Source: Candidatus Nezhaarchaeales archaeon (lineage in GTDB: Archaea; Thermoproteota; Methanomethylicia; Nezhaarchaeales; WYZ-LMO8). From it: 64,000 bases of DNA. Below are positions 5,341-53,700 of the stretch, one piece after another. Every line of letters starts with the position of its first letter. The stretch's first letter is position 1. The notes under the pieces were generated by a model, which did no database searches, had not been told where the DNA came from, and saw only the letters and a program-made list of their open reading frames with translations. A program made the translations under genes and the position numbers. The stretch spans positions 67,518 to 131,517 of the forward strand of contig JAWAKK010000001.1 of assembly GCA_038887515.1 (NCBI GenBank), read 5' to 3'.

Positions 5341-6117
5341 GTGATCTTAATGAACATCTCTAAAAAAATAATATTTTTGATGACTCTTCCGATGATCTTT
5401 GTCTTAGTAGCCTTCATAATGTCGTCATTTATAACTCAACCCGAGAGACCTGAGACGAACGTGACGCCTCCATTTTATGTCGGTGAACGCATGACGTACG
5501 AGGTAAGACTCGTCAACTCCTCAGGTGCTTATGTACTGTACAAATTGAACTTGAGTGTTACTGAAATCTCTACGATAAATGGTAGAGCATGTTTTGTTCT
5601 AAGGGGGGAGTACTTAGGCTACGATTTCGTCATTTACAGTTTCGTCACAAAGGATAATCTCACCCTTCTGAAAACCCTCATGGAGTCTCCTGTCGGCTCT
5701 GCCACAATAACTTACGACTATGAAAAGAGAAAGTGTGAAATATTTGTTTTGACAAATAAAGACCCCTCACCGCAAAGGGCTGAAGCCGACATAAAGCCAT
5801 ACCTCCAAGATCCCCTCAGCACAGTTTACTACATTAGAAGCTTGCCATTAAGCGAAGGTTACTGGTGTACCTTTAACCAGATAGACGTAATGAGCGGATT
5901 AACGTCAGTTATCAAGGTTTCAGTGAGAGGTCTCTCAAACATCAGTACTGCTGTAGGAGCCTTTGACTGTTATGAAATTTCTCTTGAAGCTAGAGGTTCG
6001 AAGACTATCGTTTACATAACCACAACTGGCTTTAAAGTTCCAGTAAAGGTCGAAGTACCGTACGGAAGAGATACGTTCCAAGTGTGGGAGCTCATAGAAT
6101 ACTCTTCAACCTCATGA
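5341..6117 (+). CDS. Hypothetical protein, anchored by an N-terminal signal or transmembrane segment.
   Basis: The N-terminus is hydrophobic (IIFLMTLPMIFVLVAFIM). The remainder is a soluble domain with no motif I recognise. Confidence 0.4.
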   Translation: MILMNISKKIIFLMTLPMIFVLVAFIMSSFITQPERPETNVTPPFYVGERMTYEVRLVNSSGAYVLYKLNLSVTEISTINGRACFVLRGEYLGYDFVIYSFVTKDNLTLLKTLMESPVGSATITYDYEKRKCEIFVLTNKDPSPQRAEADIKPYLQDPLSTVYYIRSLPLSEGYWCTFNQIDVMSGLTSVIKVSVRGLSNISTAVGAFDCYEISLEARGSKTIVYITTTGFKVPVKVEVPYGRDTFQVWELIEYSSTS

Positions 6118-7980
6118 AAGCCTGATGCCCAGCCTTTCTAGCTCGCTAATAACAAAGTGTAGGCCTAAGCTCTCTAACTTGGATTTAGTCGGTCTACCAT
6201 TAGAGTCCCATCCTCTGAACCTATAATAGTTATCTAACAATCTAGAGTAGCCTTCTCTGTCGAGCTTTACTCCCTTAAATGGGCCTGAAGGTAGTCCCTC
6301 CTCGAACCACCTAGGTGGAGGATAGTCCCATGAACGGTCCATGAATGGATATTCTCTTAGCCAAATGCACCTCGTTAAGTTGTAGACCCTCTCAGCTACT
6401 AACAGTAGATCCGTGAATCGATAATTTATGCCAGTAACAGCTACATAAAGTCTTTCATAGTAATCTAAAGGTAACGAAAGCTCAACCCAAGGTAGTCTAC
6501 AGCAAGTTAACATATCGAAGAGCGACCTAACGTGCTGTAGGTATATGACCCATTCGGCCTTGTCAGACGTATACAACGTTCTACCAACTTTAATGTCGTA
6601 AGTTATAGCCCAAGCCCTATTATGATGAGCCCCTATATCACACGTACCGTAGGCTAGGGCCATGGCTGGAGCAGCCCTACTTTCATAAGCTGATATTTCA
6701 AGACCTTTGACATGCATGGCTATCTTAATAGCTTCTTTGCCAAGCTTTTCAGCTACTCTTTTAGTTCCTTGAGCTAGCAAATCTCCAATTTTTCTCCTAT
6801 AAGCAATGTCCTCTACGAGTCTAAGTATTCCTTCAACATCACCATAGTCAGCATCGACCTCCTTCAGTAATCCTCTTCTCTTGCACTCGATAGCAAATGC
6901 AACTACGCTACCCGTCGATATGCTATCTAAGCCAAGCTCATCACAGACCCTATTTAGCTTGACTACTTCTTCTATATTATTGAGAGCACAGTTGCTGCCA
7001 ATCATAGCTGCTGTTTCATACTCGGGCCCCTCTACTAATGTTCCCGCAAACTTTCCTTCCTTAACTTTAGATATTTGTCCACAAGGCATCGCACAACCAA
7101 AGCAACCATGATTTCCTATCTTAACTTTGCCTTCCATAACATCTCCACTTATCATATCGGCCCTTTCGTAGACTGCCTCACTCATGTTTCTTGTTGGTAA
7201 CGCTGAATTCTCGTTGCTCCATAGTATTAATTGCATGGTTCCCTGTCGAATCCAAGCTTTTTGAGCCTCGCTCCTAAAGCAATACTCGTACGCTTCTTGT
7301 GCGACCTCTATCATTGCATCGCAATCATAGATAGGTATATCCATGGAGCCTGAGGCGACAATAGCCTTAACTTTTTTGGACCCTAATACAGCACCAATAC
7401 CTGTTCTACCGGCTTGCCTTCCAAAATCCGAAGTTATGCAGGCAAAGTATACTTTATTTTCTCCGGCAGGACCTATAGTTAAACATGATAAGGAGCCTGC
7501 TTTAATGTCTCGTTTGATTACCTCTTCAGCTTCTATTGAACCCAAACCCCATAAATGCTTTGCCTTCTCAATACTTACTTCACCATCAAAGATCTTTATG
7601 TAGACCGGATCCGGACTAGCTCCTTCTATGATAATAGCGTCGAAACCTGCTTGCTTAAGCTCTACACCAAACCTTCCACCTACATTACTATCTCCATAAG
7701 CTCCTGTCAATGGACTCTTAGAGCATAACGTAGTCTTGCCCGTTCCAGTAAAGTACACTCCAGTTAAAGGTCCCGTCGCTATTACGACTTTGTTTTCTGG
7801 GGAGAATGGATCTACACCCCTTGGGACTTCGTCCCATATGATCTTGGCCCCCCAACCTCTTCCACCGATATAATTCATTATAAGCTCACGGCTCAGCTCT
7901 TGAACGCATATCTTCCTTCTTGTAAGGTCGATCCTGGCTATCCTATTCATGTAACCTCCTTTTAAAGTCATGTACTCCAC
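6112..7980 (-). CDS. aor: Tungsten-containing aldehyde:ferredoxin oxidoreductase, AOR family (paralog 1).
   Basis: The AOR N-terminal domain is recognisable (NRIARIDLTRRKI..GGRGWGAKIIWDEVP...TGPLTG). The likely true start is the internal Met at about 7950. Confidence 0.85.
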   Translation of the reverse strand: MEYMTLKGGYMNRIARIDLTRRKICVQELSRELIMNYIGGRGWGAKIIWDEVPRGVDPFSPENKVVIATGPLTGVYFTGTGKTTLCSKSPLTGAYGDSNVGGRFGVELKQAGFDAIIIEGASPDPVYIKIFDGEVSIEKAKHLWGLGSIEAEEVIKRDIKAGSLSCLTIGPAGENKVYFACITSDFGRQAGRTGIGAVLGSKKVKAIVASGSMDIPIYDCDAMIEVAQEAYEYCFRSEAQKAWIRQGTMQLILWSNENSALPTRNMSEAVYERADMISGDVMEGKVKIGNHGCFGCAMPCGQISKVKEGKFAGTLVEGPEYETAAMIGSNCALNNIEEVVKLNRVCDELGLDSISTGSVVAFAIECKRRGLLKEVDADYGDVEGILRLVEDIAYRRKIGDLLAQGTKRVAEKLGKEAIKIAMHVKGLEISAYESRAAPAMALAYGTCDIGAHHNRAWAITYDIKVGRTLYTSDKAEWVIYLQHVRSLFDMLTCCRLPWVELSLPLDYYERLYVAVTGINYRFTDLLLVAERVYNLTRCIWLREYPFMDRSWDYPPPRWFEEGLPSGPFKGVKLDREGYSRLLDNYYRFRGWDSNGRPTKSKLESLGLHFVISELERLGIRLS

Positions 7981-22116: not shown

Positions 22117-23976
22117 ATGCCGCCCAAATTTTACGGTTACACTGGGAAAATTTTATGGATAAATCTATCAAAACGAGAATTTAAGAAACTTGACCTCGAC
22201 GAGAATCTGGCGAGGAACTACATAGGGGCTAGAGGGTTCGGCATTAAGATTTTATGGGATCACTTAAAACCAGGCATAGACCCTTTTGCTCCTGAAAATA
22301 AGTTTATAATTACGTTGGGACCATTAGCTTGTACCGGCGTACAGGCTGCTAGTAGGTCCTTTGCGGCCTTCAAGTCTCCATTAACTAACACGTATTTTAG
22401 ATGTACTGCTGGTGGTTCCGCAGGTGCTGAGATAAAATTGGCTGGCTATGATGTAGTCGTAGTCGATGGCAGAGCAGAAAAACCAACTTACGTCTACATT
22501 AATAATGATAGAGTGGAGTTCCGCGATGCTTCCCACGTATGGGGATTGACGACGGATTTAGCTGTCGAGTACTTAAGAGATGAAACGGACAAGAGTGCGG
22601 GCATCTTTGTTATAGGTCCTGCTGGAGAAAGATTGGTAAGGTTTGCATGCATTCAAACTCACGATCAAAGAAGCTTCGGGAGGGGTGGCGGAGGCGCCGT
22701 CTGGGGTGCCAAGAACTTAAAGGCAATAGTTGTCAAGGGAAGCAAGAGGCCGGAGATCTATGATGAGGAAAAGTTCCGCTCCCTCCTCAAAGAGGAGCTA
22801 GAGATCTTTAAATCCCATCCGTTTGTGCGAGCTTTTCACGGCTTAGGGACTGCTGGAGTAACGTATTTGTTCTATACTTTGGGACACTTCCCAACTTATA
22901 ATTTTAAGCAGCTCGAATTACCAAATGTAGAGAGGTTTAAGCCTGAGGTTCTCGAGAAGTACGTCATAAAGCGCAAAGGTTGCTATGGATGCATGATAGC
23001 TTGTTGGCAATACATGAAAGTAGACAGGGGACCCTTTGCTGGAGTAGCGTGGGATAAGCCTGAATATGAAACTTTGTGGTCATTTGGAGGCAACCTAGGT
23101 ATAACGAACTTAGAGGGAATAATAGTAGCTAACATGTTATGTGATAAGTATGGCATTGATACCATGTCGGCGGGCTCTGTAATAGGTTTCGTTTACGAAC
23201 TTTACGAAAAGGGCATTCTAAGTAAGAGCGAACTTGACGGGTTGGAACCGAAGTGGGGAGACATAGAGCCAGCGCTTGAGCTCGTTAGGAAAATTGCGTT
23301 GAGGGAAGGCGTTGGAAACTTACTTGCCGAAGGCGTTAAGAGAGCAGCAGAAATTATTGGTAGGGGGGCCGAGAGATTCGCCTTTCACATTAAAGGCCTG
23401 GAAATGCCAGGGTACGACCCTCGGGCGGCAAAGGCACACGGATTAAACCTCTCCACATCGAATATAGGTGCTAGCCACATGATTGGATGGAACTACTTTG
23501 AGATCTTTGGAGTACCGAAGAAAGTAGATCCGTTCGCTGTTGAGGGTAAGGGTGAATTATGTAAGTACGTACAAGACGAAGCTGCTTTACTGGACTCCGT
23601 AGGTTTATGTCAGTTCCCTGCTTCAAATGGTCTGCCGCCTTTAGAATTACTGGCTAAGTTATTGTACGCTGCTACTGGAATCGAAGAATTCAAAGACGCC
23701 AAGTATCTGCTCCTTGTTGGAGAAAGGGTATATAACCTCGAAAGAGCCTTCAACGTTAGAGAAGGATTTGAAAGAGAACACGATACGATGCCTGAAAGGA
23801 TAGTTTACGAAAAAGTCCCCAGACCACCAGCTATGGGCCAAATTTTCGAGTTGGATAGGTTACTAGAAGATTACTATAGAGCCCGCGGATGGAGTACTAA
23901 GACAGGTAAGCCGTCTAAGAAGAAGCTGGAGGAGCTTGGACTCTCGGAGGTTGCTGATACCATAGGGGCAGAGTGA
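22117..23976 (+). CDS. Tungsten-containing aldehyde:ferredoxin oxidoreductase, AOR family (paralog 2).
   Basis: Has the AOR N-terminal domain (GKILWINLSKRE...GARGFGIKILWDHL...LGPLAC) and a full-length 619-aa AOR architecture. Confidence 0.85.
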   Translation: MPPKFYGYTGKILWINLSKREFKKLDLDENLARNYIGARGFGIKILWDHLKPGIDPFAPENKFIITLGPLACTGVQAASRSFAAFKSPLTNTYFRCTAGGSAGAEIKLAGYDVVVVDGRAEKPTYVYINNDRVEFRDASHVWGLTTDLAVEYLRDETDKSAGIFVIGPAGERLVRFACIQTHDQRSFGRGGGGAVWGAKNLKAIVVKGSKRPEIYDEEKFRSLLKEELEIFKSHPFVRAFHGLGTAGVTYLFYTLGHFPTYNFKQLELPNVERFKPEVLEKYVIKRKGCYGCMIACWQYMKVDRGPFAGVAWDKPEYETLWSFGGNLGITNLEGIIVANMLCDKYGIDTMSAGSVIGFVYELYEKGILSKSELDGLEPKWGDIEPALELVRKIALREGVGNLLAEGVKRAAEIIGRGAERFAFHIKGLEMPGYDPRAAKAHGLNLSTSNIGASHMIGWNYFEIFGVPKKVDPFAVEGKGELCKYVQDEAALLDSVGLCQFPASNGLPPLELLAKLLYAATGIEEFKDAKYLLLVGERVYNLERAFNVREGFEREHDTMPERIVYEKVPRPPAMGQIFELDRLLEDYYRARGWSTKTGKPSKKKLEELGLSEVADTIGAE

Positions 23977-41771: not shown

Positions 41772-42080
41772 ATGAGCGAAACATGCCCTGTATGTGGGCT
41801 ACCGAAAGACCTTTGCGTTTGTGAAGCTATCGATCGCGAGCAACAGATCATAAGGATATACCTTGAGAAACGCAAGTGGGGTAGGGAAGTCACAATTATA
41901 GAAGGCATAGATGAGAGGAGTTGTGACCTTAAGAGCATAGCTGGTAAGCTCAAAACCCTTTGTGCTTGTGGTGGAACAGCGAAGAACGGGAAAATAGAGC
42001 TACAAGGTGATCATAGGCAGAAGGCCAGAGAGACGCTCATAAGCATGGGCTTTCCGCCAGAGAACATAAGCGTTGAATGA
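41772..42080 (+). CDS. Translation initiation factor SUI1 (aIF1).
   Basis: 102-aa product with a SUI1 fold and an N-terminal zinc knuckle ([13 protein letters not shown]). Confidence 0.85.
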
Positions 42081-44328: not shown

Positions 44329-44985
44329 GTGAGCAATATGTCTATAACAATAGCTTGGCATGGGCACGCCTGCTTTGAAATTAAAAACCACGTAACGATA
44401 GTGGTAGACCCTCATGATGGTACATCCATTGGGATAAAACCCCCGTCGGCTAAGGCTGACTTAGTCTTGATATCTCATAAACACTTCGATCATGCTAATG
44501 GCTTAATGTTTGTCAAGAAAAATGGCACCGTAGTAATAGATAAGCCGGGTAATTATGAAGTCAAGGGAGTGAAAGTGGTGGGGATACCCACCTATCACGA
44601 TGAATGTCGAGGAGCTAAACGTGGATTAAATACAGTTTACCTCTTTGAATATGATGAAGTTAGGTTCTGTCATTTAGGCGACTTGGGGCATGTGTTAAGT
44701 GAAGATCAAGCCCGTTTCTTAAGACCAGTAGACGTCCTCATGATTCCTGTCGGAGGAACCTTTACTATAGACGCAAAGCAAGCTAATGAAATTATGAACT
44801 TACTATCACCGAGAATAGCAATACCGATGCACTATAAGACGCCTGGACTAAATCTACCGATAGTTGGCGTTGAAGGTTTTATTGCTGGAAAGACGAATGT
44901 AGAACGCTCACAGTCAAATACATACAGGGTATCTAAAGAGACTCTGCCTAGTAAGTTAAAAATAGTTGTGTTAAGTCCACTGTAA
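44329..44985 (+). CDS. MBL-fold metal-dependent hydrolase (UPF0173-like).
   Basis: Has the ISHKHFDH motif. Confidence 0.7.
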   Translation: MSNMSITIAWHGHACFEIKNHVTIVVDPHDGTSIGIKPPSAKADLVLISHKHFDHANGLMFVKKNGTVVIDKPGNYEVKGVKVVGIPTYHDECRGAKRGLNTVYLFEYDEVRFCHLGDLGHVLSEDQARFLRPVDVLMIPVGGTFTIDAKQANEIMNLLSPRIAIPMHYKTPGLNLPIVGVEGFIAGKTNVERSQSNTYRVSKETLPSKLKIVVLSPL

Positions 44986-45126
44986 CCGACTTAAGTCTCT
45001 TATGTGATGTGACTCTTAGGGGATCTAGTGCATGGTCTTTGGGCTAACGTGTTTCATAAAGGTTGCCACAAGAATTTCTCGAACCTCAATAACCGAAGAT
45101 GGTTCAGAAGAAGTGCGAGTTGATGC

Positions 45127-45444
45127 ATGTTGTCGACCATAATAATATCGCCTGAATTCGATATAATACTCGATCCTGAAAATATGGTGATAGGTGAAGC
45201 TAGAAGCGACTTAGCTTTACTAGACGTTACGCCCATAGACAAGAAGATTGGCGAGCTCAATGACATAATAGATGTACTGTTCTGGTCTTTCGATCCAAAA
45301 GTATCGACTTCAACGACGCCTAGATCCGGGAAAAGGGGGTTGCCGTTAAAGGTTTACTACTTGCCAGACATGATACTAGGCTTCCTCGTAGGCTTAGCGC
45401 TGTTCAGCCTAATAATAGCGATGCACTTTACATTAACTCTATGA
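45127..45444 (+). CDS. MtrB-like tail-anchored protein, tentatively assigned.
   Basis: 105-aa product with a single C-terminal transmembrane helix. The N-terminal segment IISPEFDIILDPENMVIGEA and the segment WSFDPK...PRSGKRG resemble the MtrB pattern (APE..L.LDP..G, SLDP, PGREG). I am recalling that pattern from memory. The gene lies directly upstream of the MtrA homolog. Confidence 0.4.
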   Translation: MLSTIIISPEFDIILDPENMVIGEARSDLALLDVTPIDKKIGELNDIIDVLFWSFDPKVSTSTTPRSGKRGLPLKVYYLPDMILGFLVGLALFSLIIAMHFTLTL

Positions 45445-45477
45445 ATGCTAACGCAAAAATATTAAAGAGTGAGGTAA

Positions 45478-46251
45478 ATGTTCGTGAGAACCCTTCAAAA
45501 AATGAAAGTTGAGCTGGCACCAAATTGGCCCGTAGCGGTTGGAGACTACGTAGTTGGAGATCCTAAAGGTTGTGTTGCGATATGTACGTTGGGGTCTGAA
45601 GGGATATGCTCATTCCTAGTAAAAATGCCGGGAGTCGCAATAGTTGGACCTTGTAAAACTGAGAACGTAGGTTTAGAGAAAATAATATTAAACGTAATAT
45701 CAAATCCAAACATTAGGTTTTTAATAGTATGCGGAATCGAAGTTACAGGCCACTTACCAGGTCTCTCCTTTAAAGCTCTTTACGAAAACGGCATAGAGCC
45801 GGCAACTAAGAGAATCAAGGAAGCACCTGGAGCAATACCTTATATAGAACACTTGACCGTTGAAGCTGTGGAACGTTTTCAAAAACAGGTACAATTTATA
45901 GACATGATAGGGGTTGAAGACATAAACATAATTAAAGCTAAAGTCGAAGAACTCGTAACACAAGATCCAGGAGCTTACCCTGAGCCTCCATTTATCGTAG
46001 ATATCGAGAAAAAAGAGACGAGAGAAACCACTATACCTAAGTTAATTTTGGTTCCATCAATCACACCATCACTGTCAACCCTATCGGCATTAATGAGTGA
46101 CGTAAAGCGTAGAGTGCAATTAATAGAAAGAGAAAGGAAAATTATAACTGCTGTAGAAGTTACAAGAGCTTGGAGTATAGTAGCGGGGATATTACTTGCC
46201 TTCTTGCTCTTTGGTCTACTAGCACTTGTAGTGATTTTAGGAGGAACATAA
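45478..46251 (+). CDS. mtrA: Homolog of tetrahydromethanopterin S-methyltransferase subunit A (MtrA), the corrinoid-binding subunit, with a C-terminal membrane anchor.
   Basis: The product has the segments WPVAVGDYVVGD, KTENVGLEKIILNVISNPNIRFLIVCGIEVTGH, APGAIPYIEH and ERFQKQVQ. A C-terminal transmembrane helix is present. The sequence is collinear with MtrA, with high similarity. Confidence 0.85.
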   Translation: MFVRTLQKMKVELAPNWPVAVGDYVVGDPKGCVAICTLGSEGICSFLVKMPGVAIVGPCKTENVGLEKIILNVISNPNIRFLIVCGIEVTGHLPGLSFKALYENGIEPATKRIKEAPGAIPYIEHLTVEAVERFQKQVQFIDMIGVEDINIIKAKVEELVTQDPGAYPEPPFIVDIEKKETRETTIPKLILVPSITPSLSTLSALMSDVKRRVQLIERERKIITAVEVTRAWSIVAGILLAFLLFGLLALVVILGGT

Positions 46252-46252
46252 A

Positions 46253-46456
46253 GTGTCTTCCAAAAGAACCAAGGAAGCGTATACAGCTGAAATTGCTTAC
46301 ATCGAAGCTAGAATTAACGATATAACGACGAGAATACAAATGATCGGAGAGAAAGGTAGGTTCACCACGGGGTTTTATCGGGGCTTCTTTAAAGGCTTCA
46401 TAATTGGATTGATGGTATCGATAGTGTTACTAACATCAATATTGATAGTTATGTGA
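46253..46456 (+). CDS. Small tail-anchored protein that is MtrF/MtrG-like.
   Basis: 67-aa product. Its C-terminal segment GFYRGFFKGFIIGLMVSIVLL is paralogous to the tail of the next ORF. Its position matches the mtrF slot of the canonical mtrBAFG gene order. Confidence 0.45.
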   Translation: MSSKRTKEAYTAEIAYIEARINDITTRIQMIGEKGRFTTGFYRGFFKGFIIGLMVSIVLLTSILIVM

Positions 46457-46471
46457 GAGGCGCAAAGTAAT

Positions 46472-46699
46472 ATGTCGCTCGATGAGGAAGAATTTAGAGT
46501 ACCGACAGTTATAGCTCCACCGGAAATCGTTCAACTACATTCAAAGCTTAATGCAATAAACGAAAAAGTGAACTTCACGCTCAGCGAAGTAGCTCACAAA
46601 GAAGGTCTAAGAATGGGTAGCTATATAGGTTTCCTTTACGGTTTCTTAACAGGCTCTATGATAATGTTAGTACTTAAGTTTGTACTTAGGATCCTGTGA
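46472..46699 (+). CDS. MtrG-like tail-anchored protein.
   Basis: 75-aa product with the segments VPTVIAPPEIV..KLNAINEKVNF..SEVAHKEGLRMGSYIGFLYGFLTG followed by a transmembrane helix. This matches the MtrG pattern (KLD.IEEKVEF ... IGILYG). Confidence 0.55.
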   Translation: MSLDEEEFRVPTVIAPPEIVQLHSKLNAINEKVNFTLSEVAHKEGLRMGSYIGFLYGFLTGSMIMLVLKFVLRIL

Positions 46700-46740
46700 G
46701 GAGCTGAAATTAGCGTTTTATAGACCCAGCGATGAACTAT

Positions 46741-48246
46741 TCATTCCTCGCATTCGTTTCTTGTCGAACTTTCATTACTACGCTTAACTTTACGCTCCAG
46801 TTTTTGAAACTTTGCCCTTAAGCTCAATATACAGCCCATCCCCCTATTACCTCCTAGAGGATTCTGCGGCGTCCCCAAGGAATGTAAACACCTAGCCATT
46901 ACATTAGCCCCCAAGGCTAAGCCGTCTTCAACGAACACGACTCTTCTATTGACGTCGTCGTTAAATACGCCAAGCTCGTCAACATACTTAAGTATTAAGT
47001 AAGGCTTTAGACCTGTTATTCCTGCCCTTCCAGTTATACCTATGGTGTAATTATCATTTATTAAACCGTGCGCTATTAAGGTCTCCAGGACTCTTTTAGC
47101 TATAAGAGCTGAAGTATAATCCAGTATCGCTAAGAGCGTCTTGCCTCCATATTGACTGTAGAACTCGTGACCTAGTGACCGCAATTTAGGTAAGTAACTT
47201 CCATTATCCCCTACATCGCATCCTATCAGTAATACTCCTTGCTCGCACGCTAACTTTGCATTAATGGGTATCATGCCCACGCGTACTGCACTTGGAAGGA
47301 CTTTCCTTACGTCTATGTACTTATGCACTTCATAAGCTAATTCCTCGCACTTCTCAGCATCTATGACGTCTTTGGTCTTAATGTACTCTGAAAACTCTAA
47401 AGCTGACGTCGCGACTTCGGTACCTTGAATTAAAGCATCACAAATAGCTCCAGAGAGACCACATATACTGCCTATAGTCTTGGCGTAAGGAAGTTCATCA
47501 TTTGTAACCCTTCCTTTAAAGGTAGTCCCAAAATCCATGGATATTATAGGGTTTCTACAATCTACATCAGTCCACTTAGCTCCAACCTTTATACCGGCAG
47601 TCGAAAGCTCAGCTTCCATCTCATTTGCCATTATCTCACCTCCACTCTTGGGAGGTAGGCAGCCAGCAATCGCTCCATCAAAAAAGACTACATCAAGTTT
47701 TGAATATTCTTTTAAATCATCTGGAAGAGAGTTCTTAGATAAAGGTGCTATCATTTTTGACGGACTTATACCAGCTGCCAGACAACCCTTGGCTAATGCC
47801 CTTATAACCGAGCCGACTTCTTCTGGTGTTCCAAAGCTAGCGCTAATACCTGTTGATTGCACTACAAAATGTAAATCTTTATCCCTATCTAGTCCAGCTT
47901 CCCTAACGCAAGATACGAGGAAATCCCTGATAAACTCGATTACTGCCATTTCGCTTAGCATCTTCCCCCACAAGGTATAGCCTAGTAAGCGCTCGTTGGG
48001 GTGGGGTCTTCTGATGTTTCGTGTTAGTTCGACTGCCCTCCTTACTAGGTAAATTTTTCCAGTTTTTAAATCAGTAGTAGTTATGATGCACTTAGTAGTG
48101 GTGTTGCCAAGCTCAATTGATGCGACAGTGAAGAGTTGCCCAGTCCCTCTAGTTGTTACTTTCACAGGATCAATGAACATGCCGCGCGCAATTCTAGGGT
48201 TATACTTGCCGATTTTACCCTTTCTCTTTAAAAATTTAAGCCTCAT
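46741..48246 (-). CDS. ASKHA-superfamily (actin/Hsp70/sugar-kinase fold) protein. Its function is unknown and it is co-transcribed with mtrH.
   Basis: There are two phosphate-1-like motifs (ASIELGNTTTKCII and ISMDFGTTFKGRV) plus DVGDNGS. Confidence 0.5.
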   Translation of the reverse strand: MRLKFLKRKGKIGKYNPRIARGMFIDPVKVTTRGTGQLFTVASIELGNTTTKCIITTTDLKTGKIYLVRRAVELTRNIRRPHPNERLLGYTLWGKMLSEMAVIEFIRDFLVSCVREAGLDRDKDLHFVVQSTGISASFGTPEEVGSVIRALAKGCLAAGISPSKMIAPLSKNSLPDDLKEYSKLDVVFFDGAIAGCLPPKSGGEIMANEMEAELSTAGIKVGAKWTDVDCRNPIISMDFGTTFKGRVTNDELPYAKTIGSICGLSGAICDALIQGTEVATSALEFSEYIKTKDVIDAEKCEELAYEVHKYIDVRKVLPSAVRVGMIPINAKLACEQGVLLIGCDVGDNGSYLPKLRSLGHEFYSQYGGKTLLAILDYTSALIAKRVLETLIAHGLINDNYTIGITGRAGITGLKPYLILKYVDELGVFNDDVNRRVVFVEDGLALGANVMARCLHSLGTPQNPLGGNRGMGCILSLRAKFQKLERKVKRSNESSTRNECEE

Positions 48247-48250
48247 AGTT

Positions 48251-49198
48251 TTAGCCTACAAGTCTTCGATATGGATGATCTTCACTTATGGGGAGTCCAA
48301 GCTCAAGGTGGGTTGTATCCGTCACAATAGCGTCAGCCATGGCTACTACTGGAAAAACGAATTCTGCATTCTCTATGGGTCCATAGAGTACGAAGTTGCC
48401 ACCGATAATTACTTGAAGGATGTTGCTAGCTATATCGCAGAATCTAAATATCTCTCTACCTCGGGGATGCTCTTTCTTAATTCTCTTAAGCCACGGCCAG
48501 GCCGATATAACGTTATGTAAACTGCTCCCTGTCGGGTAACCGAACTTTGACTTAATGACATACGTTGATGCTAGGGCAGCTCCTGCACCAGCTCCTAAAG
48601 TAGTTACTGCGACATCGATCAATGTAGCCTTGACTCCACACTCATTGGCAATATTAAGTAACCCATTTTTAACAACGCCTCCTCCGCTCGTTAGTATTGT
48701 AACCTTACCCCTTATCGAGGGGTCGGCCGGATTAAACGCCAAAATAACGCTATTAGGCATTTTTAGTTCTCTTAGAACATTAAACTCTTCTTCAGTTATT
48801 GAAACGTTTATTGAGTTATATACGGCTTTATCGATAAGCCCAACCTCTTTGGCATATTTTGCGCCTTCAATCCTAACTCTAGGTTCTGTAGAATCTATTA
48901 GAAATGGAGATGGGGTGACTGATGCTACAAAATCTATGTACTTCTTCATTGCCTCGACGCTTTCGGAGAATATTTGGACCATGCAAGGGTTACCGGTTAT
49001 ATCGGACATTTCCTCTTGCTTCTTTATTAACGCCTCGGCTTTGTCTTTATCAAAAAGGCCTTTCCTATGGTCACTTACTATTTTATGTCCTCCATAAAAT
49101 ATTGTTCCAGCTAAGACCGTAGGGTTTTCGCCTGGTTGTCCTCCTATCTTAACTTTCCCTACTTGGTAAACGTACTGCTCTCTAGCGAATAGATATAT
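48251..49198 (-). CDS. mtrH: Homolog of tetrahydromethanopterin S-methyltransferase subunit H (MtrH), a pterin-binding TIM barrel.
   Basis: The conserved MtrH N-terminal region ([59 protein letters not shown]) is encoded in frame upstream of the first ATG at 49009. The rest of the protein (NVISAWPWL and so on) is collinear with MtrH. No ATG, GTG or TTG start exists in the open frame between 49009 and the upstream stop at 49226-49228. The position equivalent to the Met is an ATA codon at 49196-49198. Confidence 0.75.
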   Translation of the reverse strand: [315 protein letters not shown]

Positions 49199-49583
49199 TG
49201 CAATTACACCTCCAACTAGACAACTTCACTTTTAAGATCCAAGTAACTCTTTAAGCTTTACGTGACTTAACAGTAAAGAATGATTAGAATAATTGAAAAT
49301 TAATTTAGAACACTAAGAAGCCACCTTTATCATAGGGGTCCTTCCAGTTAAGAGATTGTAAGGTTGGGAGATGTTATATTTAAATTCGAAGTTACACTTC
49401 TAACAGATTCAGGTTAAGCGACGTTCCCGTCTAAATCTTGCCGAAGTCATGTAATCAAGGCAACTTTATGGCTTAAACCAAGGAGCATTGCCTGTCCCTA
49501 AATCGCTCTCGCCTTACGTTTATGGTTCCCCCGACAGTCTTATATACCTCTAACGTAAAAAGAATTGAGGGTTTTTACTAAAT

Positions 49584-50711
49584 ATGGTAGATGAGCTTAA
49601 CGCGGCTCTAGTGCTAGAAGACGGCTCTATTTTCCTTGGAAGAGGGTTTGGCTTCCCAAAGAAAGTGATCGGAGAAGTTGTGTTCACTACAGGTATGGTG
49701 GGCTATCCAGAATCGATAACTGATCCATCGTATCGAGGCCAGATATTATGTTTTACTTATCCTCTAATTGGGAATTATGGAGTTCCAAACCCCAATATTA
49801 GAGATACTTGGGGACTACCATTACATTTTGAATCTGATAAACCTCAAGTACTAGGAATAATAATCCATGAACTATGCAATAGCCCTAGCCATTGGGCAAG
49901 CGTTAAGAGCCTTCACCAATGGTTGTACGAAGAAGGAATACCCGGAATGTATGGTATAGACACTAGAAAGTTAACTAAGAAGCTGAGAGTTAAGGGAGTG
50001 ATGATGGGGGCCCTCGAAGTAAGTGAAGGCGAAGTAAACGTCGACAAGCTCTTTTCACTACTTGAAAGGGCACAAAGATATGAACGGCTAGACTTAGTGG
50101 GCGAAGTCACAATAAAAGAGCCTATAGTTTATGATAATAGAGGGCCAACAGTTGTAGTAATAGATTGCGGCGTAAAATATGGAATAATAAGGAACCTGTT
50201 GAGGAGAGGTTTGACGGTCGTAAGGTCACCTAGAGACTCTAGTGCCGATGACGTCTTAAAGTTCGAGCCTAAAGGAATTCTAGTAAGCAATGGTCCTGGG
50301 AACCCCGAAATTAATGTTAAAACTATCAACACAATAAGAGACCTCATAGAAGTAGGAATCCCCATGCTAGGGATATGCCTTGGAAACCAGATGATAGCTC
50401 TAGCCCTAGGAGCATCGACATTTAAAATGAAGTTTGGCCATAGAGGACAGAATAAGCCGTCCATAGACATGGAATCTGGAATATGTTATGTAACTAGCCA
50501 AAACCATGGATTCGCCGTCCGCGAAGACACATTAAAAGAATCGGGCTTATCACTATGGTTCCTCAACGCTGATGACATGACCGTAGAGGGATTAAAGCAT
50601 AGGAAAAAACCAGTAATTGCAGTTCAATTTCATCCAGAAGCGTCGCCCGGTCCCTATGATACCGAGTTCGTCTTTGACATGTTTGTTAACATCATGGGAG
50701 TTGAAAGCTGA
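49584..50711 (+). CDS. carA: Carbamoyl-phosphate synthase small subunit (glutamine amidotransferase).
   Basis: Has the GICLGNQ catalytic cysteine and a His-Glu C-terminal region. Confidence 0.9.
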   Translation: MVDELNAALVLEDGSIFLGRGFGFPKKVIGEVVFTTGMVGYPESITDPSYRGQILCFTYPLIGNYGVPNPNIRDTWGLPLHFESDKPQVLGIIIHELCNSPSHWASVKSLHQWLYEEGIPGMYGIDTRKLTKKLRVKGVMMGALEVSEGEVNVDKLFSLLERAQRYERLDLVGEVTIKEPIVYDNRGPTVVVIDCGVKYGIIRNLLRRGLTVVRSPRDSSADDVLKFEPKGILVSNGPGNPEINVKTINTIRDLIEVGIPMLGICLGNQMIALALGASTFKMKFGHRGQNKPSIDMESGICYVTSQNHGFAVREDTLKESGLSLWFLNADDMTVEGLKHRKKPVIAVQFHPEASPGPYDTEFVFDMFVNIMGVES

Positions 50712-53700
50712 TGAGCAAAGAGACCGTTAAGAAGGTCTTAATACTAGGTTCAGGGGCAATAAAGATAGGTGAAGCAGGGGAATTCGATTATAGCGGCTCT
50801 CAAGCTCTCAAAGCCGTTAGAGAGGAGGGCATTGAAACCGTCCTCGTGAATCCAAACATAGCCACGATACAAACAGACCCTAAGTTGGCTGGGAAGGTGT
50901 ACTTAATCCCCGTCTTGCCGGATTTTGTGGCTGAAGTAATAGAAAAGGAGAGGCCTGACGGCATAATGTTGGGCTTTGGAGGCCAAACAGCTCTAAACTG
51001 TGGAGTTCAGCTGTACAATATGGGTGTATTGCAGAAATATGGAGTTAAAGTTTTGGGGACGTCTGTTGAAAGCATAAAGAAGTGTTCTGATAGACTCTTA
51101 TTCAAAGAGACCATCGAGTCAGCCGGATTGCCGATGCCTTGTAGCAAGGCGGCTTATAGCATTGAGGAGGCCGTAGAGGTCGCAAAGGACATAGGCTACC
51201 CGGTGATGGTAAGGGTTGCTTATACTTTAGGTGGCAAAGCTTCCGGAATTGCGAGAAATGAGAAAGAGCTTGTGGAGATAGTTAGAAGAGGTATCGCTCA
51301 CAGCTTAATAGGGCAAGTGTTGATTGAAGAGTGCATAGCTACGTGGAAGCAGATAGAGTACGAAGTTATGAGAGACAAGTACGGAGACAGCGTGACCGTA
51401 TGTAACATGGAAAACATACTTGGCATGAAGGTTCACACAGGAGACAATATAGTGGTAGCGCCGTCTCAGACGATAACTAATAGGGAGTATCACATTTTGA
51501 GGATCGCCTCTATAAAGGCCGCTGAAACACTCCAGATAATAGGGGAATGTAATGTTCAATTGGCCTTAGACCCCACATCGGAAAAATTCTACATTATAGA
51601 GATGAACCCCCGACTATCTAGGAGTTCGGCGTTGGCATCTAAAGCTACTGGTTATCCTCTTGCCTACATGGCAGCGAAACTTGCCCTAGGCTATAGGCTT
51701 CATGAACTTATAAACAAAGTGACTGGAAAAACTACGGCTTGCTTCGAGCCAGCTTTAGATTACGTAGTTCTGAAGTTCCCGAGATGGGACTTCCAGAAGT
51801 TCGAAGGGGTCGATAGAAGACTTGGAACACAGATGAAGTCTGTTGGAGAAGTAATGGCGATAGGACGTTGTTTTGAAGAAGCTCTTCAAAAGGCTATTAG
51901 GATGCTTGATATAGGGAAGCCAGGCCTGGTTGCAAGTAGCATAAGTGATCGAAACCTTCTAAGACAAAAACTTATCGAAATGACGGACGAAATATTATTT
52001 GACGTGGCCGCAGCCCTTAAAGCAGGCATGACGGTAGAGGAAATACATGAATTATCTTCTATAGATCCATGGTTCATAGAGAAGATAAAGAACATAGTCG
52101 ATATGGAGGAGAAGTTAAGATCGCTCAGAGGTAAGCAGCTTGATGAACTCATCGACATCATAAGAGAGGCTAAGAGACTAGGCTTCTCGGACAAACAGAT
52201 AGCCATGTGCCTTGGTTTAACGGAAGACGATGTCAGGAACTTCAGGTACAAGAAGGGTTTGATCCCCGCAGTCAAGCAGATAGATACGCTTGCAGCCGAG
52301 TGGCCTGCTCAAACAAACTATCTGTACGTGACTTATGGAGGAGAAGAAGACGACGTAGAATTTAAGAAAGACGTGAAAAAAGTCATAGTGTTAGGCGCGG
52401 GCACATATCGGATTGGTAGTTCTGTCGAATTCGATTGGTGTACCATGAACATGGTGTGGGCCCTTAAGGAAAGGGGATTAGACGAGGTTATAGTAATAAA
52501 TTGCAATCCTGAAACGGTGTCCACCGATTACGACATGAGTGATAAGCTATACTTTGAAGAACTGACCCTCGAAAGAGTGCTCGACATATGCTATAAGGAG
52601 AACCCGTGGGGAGTAATCACGTGCGTTGGAGGACAAATACCGAACAACTTAGCTCCAAAACTCGAGAAACTCGGCATTAGAATACTCGGCACAGCTGGAG
52701 AGGATGTAGATAGAGCTGAGGATAGAGCTAAATTTAGTAAACTCTTAGACGAGCTTGGAATATCACAACCTCCATGGGCTAAGTTCGCCTCAATAGAAGA
52801 GGCCGAAGATTTTGCGCGGCGGGTTGGTTATCCCGTACTCGTTAGACCCTCTTATGTTCTAAGTGGCGCAGCTATGAGAGTTGCATGGACCCCTGAGCAG
52901 CTTAGGGAATTTCTAAGGAAAGCGACGAGCGTAAGCCAAGAACATCCAGTTGTGATAAGCAAGTTCATAGAAGACGCCATAGAGGTGGAGGTTGACGCCG
53001 TATCGGATGGTGAGACGACGGTCATAGGGGCAGTTATAGAGCACGTCGAGCGTGCAGGAGTTCATTCTGGAGATGCGACGATGGTGATACCACCTCAAAG
53101 GTTAAGTTCTAATATAATAAAGACAATAAAGGACTATACGAAACGAATAGCGAAGGCCCTTAAGATTAAGGGACCCTTCAACATACAGTTCCTCGTTAAG
53201 GAAGGAAACGTCTACGTCATAGAGTGTAACTTGAGAGCTTCAAGGTCTATGCCCTTCACCTCAAAGGTTAAAGCTGTTAACTTAATGAAACTCGCCTCTT
53301 ACGCTCTGGTTGGTGAGAAGATACCTTGGAAGGGGGACGAGGAACCTCCACCTTTAGCGGTAGGAGTAAAGGTACCACAATTCTCTTTCATGCAACTTGA
53401 AGGGGCGGACCCGGTATTAGGGGTTGAAATGCAATCAACTGGTGAAGTTGCATGCTTAGGCGAAACGTTTACAGAAGCTTTCTACAAAGCTCTTCTCGCT
53501 GCTGGTTTTAAGATACCCGTTAGCGGAGGGAACATCCTAATAACCGTCGGTGGCGTAGAACTTAAGAAGAAAATACTCCCATTAGTCAAGTATTTTAGAG
53601 CTCTTGGCTTTAACATCCTCGCCACTGAACACACGGCTGACTTCTTAAGAGAGGAGGGCTTCAATGACGTGAAGGTATTGTACAAGGTTAGAGAAGTTAG

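What the first reader, a model, noticed from the sequence alone, without database searches (positions are those of the whole stretch)
48251..49228. MtrH homolog whose conserved N-terminus has no canonical start codon
The diagnostic MtrH N-terminal block ([28 protein letters not shown]...) is encoded in frame for 63 codons upstream of the first ATG, which is at 49009. The open frame back to the upstream stop contains no ATG, GTG or TTG. That stop is at 49226-49228. The codon that aligns with the initiator Met of methanogen MtrH (MFKFDKEQ versus IYLFAREQ) is ATA, at 49196-49198.

One possibility is non-canonical initiation from ATA or ATT. Another is a sequencing error in which ATG was read as ATA. 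A third is that the gene is recently inactivated or N-terminally truncated.
Basis: seen in the sequence. Interest (0 to 1): 0.5.

Follow-up and report, generated by a model that had tools for sequence, protein, structure and literature searches.

The report
MtrH gene with conserved ATA start
A complete methyltransferase gene (mtrH) under purifying selection in an uncultured Nezhaarchaeota archaeon has ATA where all its relatives have ATG or GTG, and a second, diverged lineage has the same ATA, so this is most likely a real but rare non-canonical translation start, not a sequencing error or a dead gene.

Summary
The minus-strand mtrH frame is open from TGA (49228-49226). It has no ATG, GTG or TTG for 72 codons, until ATG 49009. 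ATA (49198-49196) sits exactly where 19 or more Nezhaarchaeota orthologs (all 315-316 aa) have ATG or GTG.

A Logan contig from another sample (L001, 87.6% aa identity, dS about 0.46) carries the same ATA, the same upstream TGA and the same Shine-Dalgarno (SD) sequence. An independent assembly (L002) is identical to the window. This excludes sequencing error.

Codons 2-63 evolve under strong purifying selection (omega 0.09, against 0.14 for the rest). They encode barrel strand 1 of a confidently predicted TIM barrel. This excludes a truncated or decaying gene.

A perfect SD, GGAGGTG, lies 8 nt upstream of ATA, within the 6-9 nt spacing of other genes in the window. Orthologs that start at ATG or GTG have weaker SDs (mostly GAAGGTG or GAAGGTT).

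GenBank already annotates this protein with a non-ATG start, ATT two codons upstream. That ATT is TTT in L001 and sits only 2 nt after the SD.

Best reading: SD-directed near-cognate initiation at AUA, inherited from the common ancestor of the two lineages. This is a new example of a known phenomenon and of modest interest.

The parts
48251..49198 (-). mtrH coding sequence read from ATA: 315 codons plus the TAA stop.
   Evidence: Translation. PF02007 E 1.2e-125. TIGR01114 429.9 bits. Same length as the 315-aa orthologs.
49196..49198 (-). ATA, the proposed near-cognate initiation codon. It aligns with the ATG or GTG of all orthologs.
   Evidence: The same ATA is at L001 1790-1792.
49207..49213 (-). 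Shine-Dalgarno sequence GGAGGTG, 8 nt upstream of ATA.
   Evidence: Identical in L001. In other window genes the GGTG-to-start spacing is 6-9 nt. Orthologs have GAAGGTG, GAAGGTT, AAAGGTG or GAAGGGTG at the same place.
49226..49228 (-). In-frame TGA that closes the frame upstream. A further in-frame stop, TAA, lies two codons beyond it at 49234-49232.
   Evidence: TGA is conserved in L001.
49202..49204 (-). ATT, the start chosen in the GenBank annotation (317-aa product MAIYLF...). It is not conserved.
   Evidence: P0121 = MEM4575949.1. TTT in L001. Only 2 nt after the SD.
49007..49009 (-). First canonical in-frame start, ATG at codon 64. Automatic callers use it for the 252-aa product P0020.
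   Evidence: It falls inside predicted helix 51-68. Its Met is part of the KKQEEMSD motif shared with most close orthologs.
49247..49262 (-). CGTAAAGCTTAAAGAG, a promoter-like motif that looks like BRE plus TATA box. It lies about 49-64 nt upstream of the start and is conserved in most Nezhaarchaeota mtrH loci.
   Evidence: Upstream regions anchored at the start codon. Its role as a promoter is inferred, not shown.
49199..49264 (-). Conserved promoter and leader region. Only 3 differences from L001 over 66 nt.
   Evidence: printed upstream sequences; coordinates.
49182..49229 (-). Out-of-frame 15-codon ORF from GTG to TAG that overlaps the start region. Probably incidental.
   Evidence: Read. 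It is present in both ATA loci, but all 3 differences are non-synonymous in that frame.
46741..48246 (-). Methanogenesis marker 14 gene (DUF2114), which starts 4 nt after the mtrH stop and so probably shares its operon.
   Evidence: PF09887 E 3.5e-174. TIGR03285. Same arrangement in all relatives.
45127..46699 (+). mtrB, mtrA (with an MtrF-like C-terminus), mtrF and mtrG, convergent with mtrH.
   Evidence: Against L001, omega is 0.08-0.16 for A, F and G, and 0.40 for B.
44986..45126 (.). 141-nt spacer between the MBL-fold hydrolase gene and mtrB. Relatives L045, L046 and L047 carry mtrE, mtrD and mtrC at this place.

Best explanation
mtrH is a functional, full-length gene whose initiation codon is AUA.

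Proposed mechanism:
1. The mRNA is probably made from a conserved BRE/TATA-like promoter about 50-65 nt upstream. It would have a leader of roughly 25-30 nt.
2. The leader carries a perfect 7-nt Shine-Dalgarno sequence (GGAGGUG). This pairs with the 3' end of 16S rRNA and places the small subunit so that AUA (49198-49196) lies in the P site.
3. Initiator Met-tRNA (anticodon CAU) pairs with AUA at the first two positions and tolerates the A:C mismatch at the third. This gives Met-Tyr-Leu-Phe-Ala-Arg-Glu-Gln... and a 315-aa MtrH.
4. The G-to-A change from the ancestral ATG arose before the split of two lineages and has been kept since.
5. Translation is presumably less efficient than from AUG. 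The strengthened SD (GGAGGTG, against mostly GAAGGTG or GAAGGTT in relatives) may compensate in part.

Shown: the sequence facts, conservation of ATA and the SD, purifying selection on the N-terminus, and the integrity of the fold.
Inferred: the transcription start, the use of initiator tRNA at AUA, the reduced efficiency, and the compensation.
For: 1. ATA sits at the exact ortholog start. 19 or more Nezhaarchaeota loci and the outgroups have ATG or GTG there, and their products are 315-316 aa.
2. L001 comes from another sample and is 87.6% aa identical (dS 0.455). It has the same ATA, the same in-frame TGA 9 codons upstream, and no canonical start until codon 64.
3. The window and L001 are sister lineages in a neighbour-joining tree. 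All the other Nezhaarchaeota loci and both outgroups start at ATG or GTG, so ATA is a shared derived state.
4. Codons 2-63 have omega 0.089 (15 synonymous, 7 non-synonymous differences). The rest of the gene has omega 0.139.
5. 18 of 57 invariant family columns lie in residues 1-63. The AlphaFold2 model (pLDDT 92.9) places a beta-hairpin, barrel strand 28-33 and most of helix 51-68 there. The solved MtrH chain 9qtp_o aligns from residue 2.
6. GGAGGTG lies 8 nt upstream of ATA. Other genes in the window have 6-9 nt between GGTG and the start. Orthologs have the homologous SD 6-8 nt before their ATG or GTG.
7. The neighbouring mtrA, mtrF, mtrG and marker-14 genes are also under purifying selection, so the cluster is in use.
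8. From the literature: in archaea the SD pre-positions the initiation complex and only local scanning follows (PMC6237735). About 30% of putative alternative initiation sites in Haloferax ribosome profiling were near-cognate codons (PMC7261190).
Against: - There is no direct evidence of the protein's N-terminus or of the transcript's 5' end.
- AUA is not among the start codons accepted for archaea. A review lists only AUG, GUG and UUG (PMC7531240).
- aIF1 discriminates against non-canonical starts (PMC6237735).
- Among 61,358 reconstructed AUG starts in prokaryotes, none switched to AUA (PMC5622118).
- Only two lineages, which amount to one evolutionary event, carry the ATA. The SD 'compensation' is therefore a single observation.
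- A third-position mismatch should be less stable at the high growth temperatures expected for this group.
Confidence: 0.75

Rival explanations
1. Initiation occurs at ATT (49204-49202), two codons upstream, as in the GenBank annotation. The product would be 317 aa (MAIYLF...).
For: PGAP chose this start for MEM4575949.1. ATT is a near-cognate codon, and AUU is the codon E. coli infC uses (my own knowledge).
Against: The sister lineage L001 has TTT at this position but keeps ATA. ATT begins only 2 nt after GGAGGTG, whereas other genes in the window have 6-9 nt. No ortholog has the two extra residues.
Confidence: 0.06
2. The full-length protein is made by another unconventional route. One option is initiation at an out-of-frame canonical codon (TTG 49203-49201, or GTG 49229-49227) followed by a frameshift. 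Another is re-initiation coupled to the 15-codon upstream ORF that ends at TAG 49184-49182.
For: The out-of-frame TTG, and the GTG...TAG small ORF overlapping the start, are present in both ATA loci. Termination-reinitiation is known in archaea (my own knowledge).
Against: Neither overlap contains an X XXY YYZ heptamer or any other shift site conserved between the window and L001 (read). All three differences inside the small ORF are non-synonymous in its frame but synonymous or conservative in the mtrH frame. The other orthologs show no comparable small ORF in the 110 nt upstream of their starts (read by eye). TTG lies only 3 nt after the SD. The GTG lies at or upstream of the inferred transcript start. 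A frameshift product would carry a non-homologous N-terminal extension that no ortholog has.
Confidence: 0.07
3. The gene is N-terminally truncated or decaying. Only the 252-aa product from ATG 49009 is made, or none at all.
For: Automatic gene callers produce 252-aa and 243-aa products (P0020, P0022). The lineage has lost mtrEDC. mtrB shows relaxed constraint, with omega 0.40.
Against: Omega is 0.089 for codons 2-63 across dS 0.55. No stop or frameshift occurs in 315 codons in either lineage. A product from Met64 would start inside helix 51-68 and lack barrel strand 1 and the most conserved block of the family. The SD and promoter upstream of ATA are conserved.
Confidence: 0.04
4. Sequencing or assembly error: the true codon is ATG.
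For: It would take only a single base (G read as A).
Against: The Logan assembly L002 is identical to the window over 6,759 nt, including the ATA. L001 comes from a different run and a different species-level lineage and has ATA with diverged flanking codons: TAC ATA TTT against TAT CTA TTC.
Confidence: 0.01

Closest known systems
Bacterial genes with conserved near-cognate start codons (E. coli infC and pcnB, AUU). Recalled from my own knowledge, not tested here.
   Same: The start codon differs from AUG only at the third position. It is preceded by an SD and is conserved among relatives. The gene is functional and full length.
   Different: This case is archaeal and the codon is AUA, not AUU. 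In infC the weak codon is the sensor of an IF3 autoregulatory loop, and nothing here suggests such a loop. The archaeal fidelity factor is aIF1, whose gene in the window (41772-42080) shows no change in its invariant basic stretch.
Canonical MtrH of methanogens (TIGR01114/PF02007; solved in the Mtr complex, PDB 9qtp chain o).
   Same: It aligns end to end: residues 2-313 to 2-315, E 5.4e-90. It scores above the equivalog cut-off. It has the same predicted TIM-barrel layout. It is adjacent to mtrB, A, F, G and marker 14.
   Different: The start codon is ATA instead of ATG. The membrane subunit genes mtrE, D and C, which precede mtrB in related lineages L045-L047, are absent from that place, leaving only 141 nt between the hydrolase gene and mtrB.
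Near-cognate putative initiation sites seen by ribosome profiling in Haloferax volcanii (PMC7261190).
   Same: Both are archaeal, and both suggest that codons one base away from AUG can be used.
   Different: The Haloferax sites are unvalidated alternative or internal sites, and the authors set them aside. Here the near-cognate codon is the only possible start of a conserved enzyme, and it is conserved between lineages.
The GenBank (PGAP) annotation of this same protein, MEM4575949.1, 317 aa.
   Same: It is the same gene, and it already recognises that the gene needs a non-ATG/GTG/TTG start.
   Different: It starts at ATT two codons upstream. Comparison with L001 and the SD spacing favour ATA.

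Membership tests
MtrH (tetrahydromethanopterin S-methyltransferase subunit H; TIGR01114 / PF02007) | Full-length match to the family profile above the curated cut-off | tested here: met
   TIGR01114: 429.9 bits against a cut-off of 271.4, positions 3-313 of 314. PF02007: 419.1 bits, profile 1-294 of 299.
MtrH (tetrahydromethanopterin S-methyltransferase subunit H; TIGR01114 / PF02007) | Conserved N-terminal block (GGQPGE...TVL.GTIFY) present and in frame | tested here: met
   Invariant residues F4, Q8, G19, G20, G23, E24, L29, G31, T32, I33, F34 and Y35 are all present.
MtrH (tetrahydromethanopterin S-methyltransferase subunit H; TIGR01114 / PF02007) | Alternating strand-helix (TIM-barrel-like) fold, like solved MtrH and MtgA | tested here: met
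   The AF2 model has pLDDT 92.9 and pTM 0.91, with alternating strand-helix elements. By sequence it aligns to 9qtp_o, 8z9u_B and 6sj8_A. No structural fold search was run.
MtrH (tetrahydromethanopterin S-methyltransferase subunit H; TIGR01114 / PF02007) | Part of a complete mtrEDCBAFGH set (membrane-bound, sodium-pumping complex) | tested here: not met
   mtrB, A, F, G and H are present. mtrE, D and C are missing from the conserved position between the MBL hydrolase gene and mtrB. Whether they lie elsewhere in the genome cannot be seen from the window.
MtrH (tetrahydromethanopterin S-methyltransferase subunit H; TIGR01114 / PF02007) | Methyl transfer from methyl-H4MPT to the corrinoid of MtrA | not testable with these tools
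   This needs biochemistry.
Genes with a genuine non-canonical (near-cognate) start codon | No ATG, GTG or TTG in frame between the upstream stop and the conserved N-terminus | tested here: met
   72 start-less codons in the window, and the same in L001.
Genes with a genuine non-canonical (near-cognate) start codon | A near-cognate codon at the position of the ortholog start, conserved in independent sequences | tested here: met
   ATA in the window, in L002 and in the diverged L001. ATG or GTG in all other loci.
Genes with a genuine non-canonical (near-cognate) start codon | Ribosome-binding site at functional spacing | tested here: met
   GGAGGTG plus 8 nt. The window's range is 6-9 nt. The homologous SD occurs in orthologs.
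Genes with a genuine non-canonical (near-cognate) start codon | Purifying selection on the codons upstream of the first canonical start | tested here: met
   Omega 0.089 for codons 2-63.
Genes with a genuine non-canonical (near-cognate) start codon | Direct mapping of the initiation site (N-terminal peptide, ribosome profiling or toeprint) | not testable with these tools
   No expression data are available for this lineage.
Pseudogene / truncated gene | Internal stops or frameshifts, or relaxed selection (omega near 1) | tested here: not met
   The 315-codon frame is intact in both lineages. Omega is 0.128 overall.
Programmed frameshift / recoding site | Conserved slippery or shift-prone sequence linking an upstream canonical start to the main frame | tested here: not met
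   There is no X XXY YYZ heptamer in the TTG-frame overlap, and no conserved shift site in the GTG-frame overlap. The sequence differs between the window and L001 (read).

The most novel reading that the evidence does not exclude
The ATG-to-ATA change is not a tolerated defect but a selected setting. It would be a conserved AUA initiation codon, paired with a strengthened Shine-Dalgarno sequence, that sets or regulates MtrH output in a lineage whose Mtr complex has lost its membrane pump subunits. That regulation might work through sensitivity to aIF1 levels, as infC does with IF3. A second MtrH-like clade has ACG at the initiator position and no canonical alternative (L030/L031). This would then hint that near-cognate starts recur in this enzyme family as a way of tuning expression.
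Probability: 0.15. Interest if true: 0.55.

Novelty: new member of a known kind. Interest (0 to 1): 0.3.

Why it matters
Archaeal start codons are generally taken to be AUG, GUG and UUG only. This gene gives a clean, naturally conserved case in which an SD-led archaeal mRNA must start at AUA to make an enzyme that selection is clearly maintaining.

It has three practical consequences:
- It offers a concrete substrate for testing the fidelity of archaeal initiation (aIF1 and SD strength) in vitro.
- It corrects the public annotation, which starts at ATT where ATA is the better-supported codon.
- Automatic gene callers truncate this protein to 252 or 243 aa, which could lead to mtrH being scored as defective or absent in metabolic reconstructions of Nezhaarchaeota.

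It does not change what is known about Mtr function.

Tried and rejected
- **Rfam.** A scan of the whole window found no known RNA family, including in the mtrH leader.
- **tRNA scan.** No tRNA genes in the window, so the initiator tRNA could not be examined.
- **RNA fold of the leader and start region.** A hairpin pairs the SD with the start region at -17.3 kcal/mol. The z-score is only -1.46 and the pairs are not kept in L001, so it was dropped.
- **Stop-codon readthrough from an upstream ORF.** Rejected. A second in-frame stop (TAA) lies two codons before the TGA, and the frame upstream differs in L001.
- **Frameshift from out-of-frame TTG or GTG.** No conserved shift site was found.
- **Link between the ATA start and loss of mtrEDC.** The ATA lineages do lack mtrEDC. 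So do the ATG/GTG-start lineages L048, L049 and L050, so the deletion does not explain the start codon.
- **Lineage-wide relaxed start-codon fidelity through an altered aIF1.** aIF1 is 89-90% identical to that of ATG-start relatives, with its basic stretch invariant. No other gene in the window lacks a canonical start.
- **More members of the ATA clade.** The window's own genome is not among the species representatives.
Full report
**What is in the sequence**

On the minus strand, a frame opens after TGA (49228-49226) and runs to TAA (48253-48251). Its first in-frame ATG, GTG or TTG is ATG at 49009-49007, 72 codons after the upstream stop.

Read from ATA (49198-49196), the frame encodes 315 residues. 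Pfam MtrH (PF02007) matches residues 6-300 to profile positions 1-294, with E 1.2e-125. The NCBIfam equivalog TIGR01114 matches residues 3-313 at 429.9 bits, against a cut-off of 271.4.

A 72-codon run without a canonical start codon occurs in about 3% of coding windows of this sequence. The absence of internal alternatives is therefore unremarkable. The anomaly is the missing initiator. No other long ORF in the window has more than 44 start-less codons at its 5' end, and none with a family match has more than 28.

**Whose gene it is**

The closest proteins are 77-81% identical. All are 315-316 aa, are annotated as MtrH of Candidatus Nezhaarchaeota/Nezhaarchaeales, and begin M/V-F/Y-K/R-F-A/V-K/R-E-Q. 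More distant hits come from Methanomethylicia, Bathyarchaeia, Thorarchaeota and Methanothermobacter.

Two database entries are short:
- P0020 (252 aa) is 100% identical to the window from Met64.
- P0022 (243 aa) is 87% identical.

Both are automatic gene calls that fell back to an internal Met. The cluster of P0020 also contains the GenBank protein MEM4575949.1 (317 aa, MAIYLF...), which lies on a 776-kb contig of a Nezhaarchaeales MAG. NCBI's pipeline therefore already gave this gene a non-standard start, namely ATT at 49204-49202.

**Sequencing error is excluded**

L002 is a Logan assembly of run SRR21619495. It is identical to window 45251-52009 over 6,759 nt, including the ATA.

The stronger evidence is L001, a 5,988-nt Logan contig from a different run (SRR32459161) that carries a diverged copy of the whole cluster. 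Its MtrH is 87.6% identical in protein. It differs at 34% of synonymous sites (dS 0.455).

At the start, L001 reads GGAGGTGTATTTGCA ATA TAC ATA TTT GCT AGA GAG. The ATA is there, and the neighbouring codons have changed (TAT to TAC, CTA to ATA, TTC to TTT). L001 has the same in-frame TGA nine codons upstream and no canonical start before codon 64.

In a neighbour-joining tree the window and L001 are sister lineages. All the other Nezhaarchaeota loci start at ATG or GTG, as do the Bathyarchaeota and Methanobacteriaceae outgroups. The simplest history is a single ATG-to-ATA transition in the common ancestor of the two lineages.

**Truncation and decay are excluded**

Between the window and L001, selection on mtrH compares as follows:

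| Region | Synonymous differences | Non-synonymous differences | omega |
|---|---|---|---|
| Codons 2-63 | 15 | 7 | 0.089 |
| Codons 64-315 | 58 | 34 | 0.139 |

The block upstream of the first ATG has been kept as protein-coding sequence throughout the divergence.

It is also the most conserved part of the family. 18 of the 57 invariant columns in a 32-sequence alignment lie in residues 1-63.

An AlphaFold2 model (mean pLDDT 92.9, pTM 0.91) places three elements there: a beta-hairpin (10-19), barrel strand 28-33, and most of helix 51-68. The solved MtrH chain 9qtp_o aligns from residue 2. A product starting at Met64 would begin in the middle of helix 1 and lack the first strand of the barrel.

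The neighbouring genes are also constrained:

| Gene | omega (window against L001) |
|---|---|
| mtrA | 0.16 |
| mtrF | 0.08 |
| mtrG | 0.08 |
| marker 14 | 0.11 |

**Why ATA rather than ATT or something else**

GGAGGTG (49213-49207) lies 8 nt upstream of ATA and is identical in L001. Genes in the window with a recognisable SD have 6-9 nt between the GGTG and the start codon. Examples are 61670, 34701, 58148, 40577, 57195 and 31989.

The orthologs have a homologous purine-rich element 6-8 nt before their ATG or GTG. It reads GAAGGTG or GAAGGTT, and once each AAAGGTG and GAAGGGTG. ATA therefore lies where this element places initiation in every relative.

ATT, the GenBank start, begins only 2 nt after the SD and is TTT in L001.

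Further upstream, CGTAAAGCTTAAAGAG (49262-49247) is conserved in most Nezhaarchaeota loci, ending about 45-50 nt before the start. It looks like a BRE plus TATA box. If so, transcription would begin near 49225, giving a leader of about 27 nt that contains the SD. This last step is inference from typical archaeal promoter geometry, not a result.

Only the two ATA loci have a perfect GGAGG core. All ATG/GTG loci have A at the second position. This is consistent with a compensating improvement of the SD, but phylogenetically it is one event.

**Other routes considered**

- **Out-of-frame TTG (49203-49201).** It is conserved in both ATA loci. It lies 3 nt after the SD, and its frame ends after 15 codons.
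- **GTG (49229-49227).** It opens a 15-codon ORF that ends at TAG 49184-49182 in both loci.
- **Neither overlap** contains a shift-prone sequence shared by the two lineages. All three substitutions inside the small ORF change its amino acids. By eye, no comparable small ORF appears in the upstream regions of the other orthologs.
- **Readthrough of the TGA** has no upstream ORF to come from.
- **A predicted hairpin** pairing the SD with the start region is not significant (z -1.46) and not conserved.
- **Rfam** finds nothing in the window.

**Mechanism proposed**

In archaea, the SD pre-positions the pre-initiation complex, which consists of the 30S subunit, aIF1, aIF1A and aIF2-GTP-Met-tRNAi. 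Only local scanning settles the codon, and aIF1 disfavours wrong complexes and non-canonical codons (PMC6237735).

I propose that the strong SD holds AUA in the P site long enough for the initiator tRNA to be accepted despite the third-position A:C mismatch. This would give full-length MtrH at reduced efficiency.

Reviews list only AUG, GUG and UUG as archaeal starts (PMC7531240). However, about 30% of putative alternative initiation sites in Haloferax ribosome profiling were near-cognate codons (PMC7261190). Switches of annotated starts to such codons are very rare in prokaryotes. Of 61,358 ancestral AUG starts, 1 became AUU, 2 became CUG and none became AUA (PMC5622118).

I put this explanation at 0.75. 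The remainder is divided among ATT (0.06), an unconventional coupled or frameshift route (0.07), truncation (0.04), error (0.01) and mechanisms not considered.

**Context**

In relatives L045, L046 and L047 the order is HTH regulator, UbiE-like methyltransferase, MBL hydrolase, then mtrE-D-C-B-A-F-G. This block is convergent with mtrH and marker 14, which are followed by carA and carB.

The window keeps both flanks, but only 141 nt separate the hydrolase gene (which ends at 44985) from mtrB (which starts at 45127). So mtrEDC have been deleted. The 120 nt upstream of mtrB in L001 are homologous to this spacer.

A preprint on Methanonezhaarchaeia reports species clusters that lack MtrCDE and interprets them as a stage in the loss of methanogenesis (10.1101/2025.06.25.661132). 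However, ATG/GTG-start lineages L048, L049 and L050 have the same deletion. The start-codon change is therefore not a simple consequence of it.

The aIF1 (SUI1) gene lies in the window at 41772-42080. It is 89-90% identical to that of three ATG/GTG-start relatives, and its basic stretch is unchanged. Nothing here points to relaxed initiation fidelity across the lineage.

**Verdict**

This is a real, conserved, non-canonical (AUA) start of a functional archaeal gene. It is a new example of a known kind of exception, and GenBank already flags it, though at the neighbouring ATT. Interest is modest (0.3).

Noticed in passing
window 44986-45126 (compare L045 13334-15926, L046 7804-10394): mtrE, mtrD and mtrC are cleanly missing between the MBL-fold hydrolase gene and mtrB, with synteny kept on both sides. 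The same deletion occurs in ATG/GTG-start lineages L048, L049 and L050. L045, L046 and L047 keep the full operon. On the MtrH tree this suggests repeated loss or exchange.
   Followed up: partly
L030 1498-1500, L031 1498-1500, L033 149-151: A second MtrH-like clade, about 43% identical to the query, has ACG at the initiator position where its close relatives L029, L032 and L034 have ATG. In L030 and L031 (identical coding sequences from two metagenomes) the in-frame TTG three codons upstream is also lost (TCG), so no canonical start remains before codon 29. The 306-codon frame is intact, and omega for codons 29-306 is about 0.13.
   Followed up: partly
window 49222-49262, and the same region of L003-L050: Downstream of the conserved CGTAAAGCTTAAAGAG motif, most Nezhaarchaeota mtrH upstream regions carry an imperfect palindrome (AAGAGCT-N5-8-AGCTCTTAGAG). 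It spans the likely transcription start and could be a regulator binding site. In the window it is degenerate (AAGAGTTACTTGGATCTTAAAAG).
   Followed up: no
window 45127-45444: MtrB is shorter here (105 aa, against 118-122 aa in relatives) and falls below both NCBIfam cut-offs (49.5 bits against 113; 48.2 against 50). It evolves faster than its neighbours, with omega 0.40 against L001. It may be losing constraint after the loss of MtrCDE.
   Followed up: partly
window 41772-42080: The gene for aIF1/SUI1, the factor that polices start-codon choice, lies 7 kb from mtrH. Differences from three ATG/GTG-start relatives that are specific to the window are I7V, G21D, V42I, A63L, residue 62 (T here; A, A and S in the relatives), residue 83 (Q here; H, H and Y) and M88T. 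The [10 protein letters not shown] stretch is invariant.
   Followed up: partly
window 45478-45504: The start of mtrA is ambiguous. ATG 45478 lies only 2 nt after GAGGT. GTG 45484 lies 8 nt after it. The Pfam match begins at residue 11, and relatives are 253-254 aa against 257 aa here.
   Followed up: no
L048 9181-10158: In one mtrEDC-less relative with an ATG start, the marker-14 (DUF2114) gene is called at only 325 aa, against about 500 aa elsewhere. There are gaps of about 230 nt before it and about 740 nt after it. It may be a decaying copy.
   Followed up: no
window 6115-7980 and 22117-23973: There are two full-length paralogs of aldehyde:ferredoxin oxidoreductase. The rest of the scanned window holds ordinary housekeeping genes: GatA/B, a LysX/ArgX-type cluster, carAB, RtcB, an Lhr helicase and a 1003-aa HerA-like ORF.
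   Followed up: no
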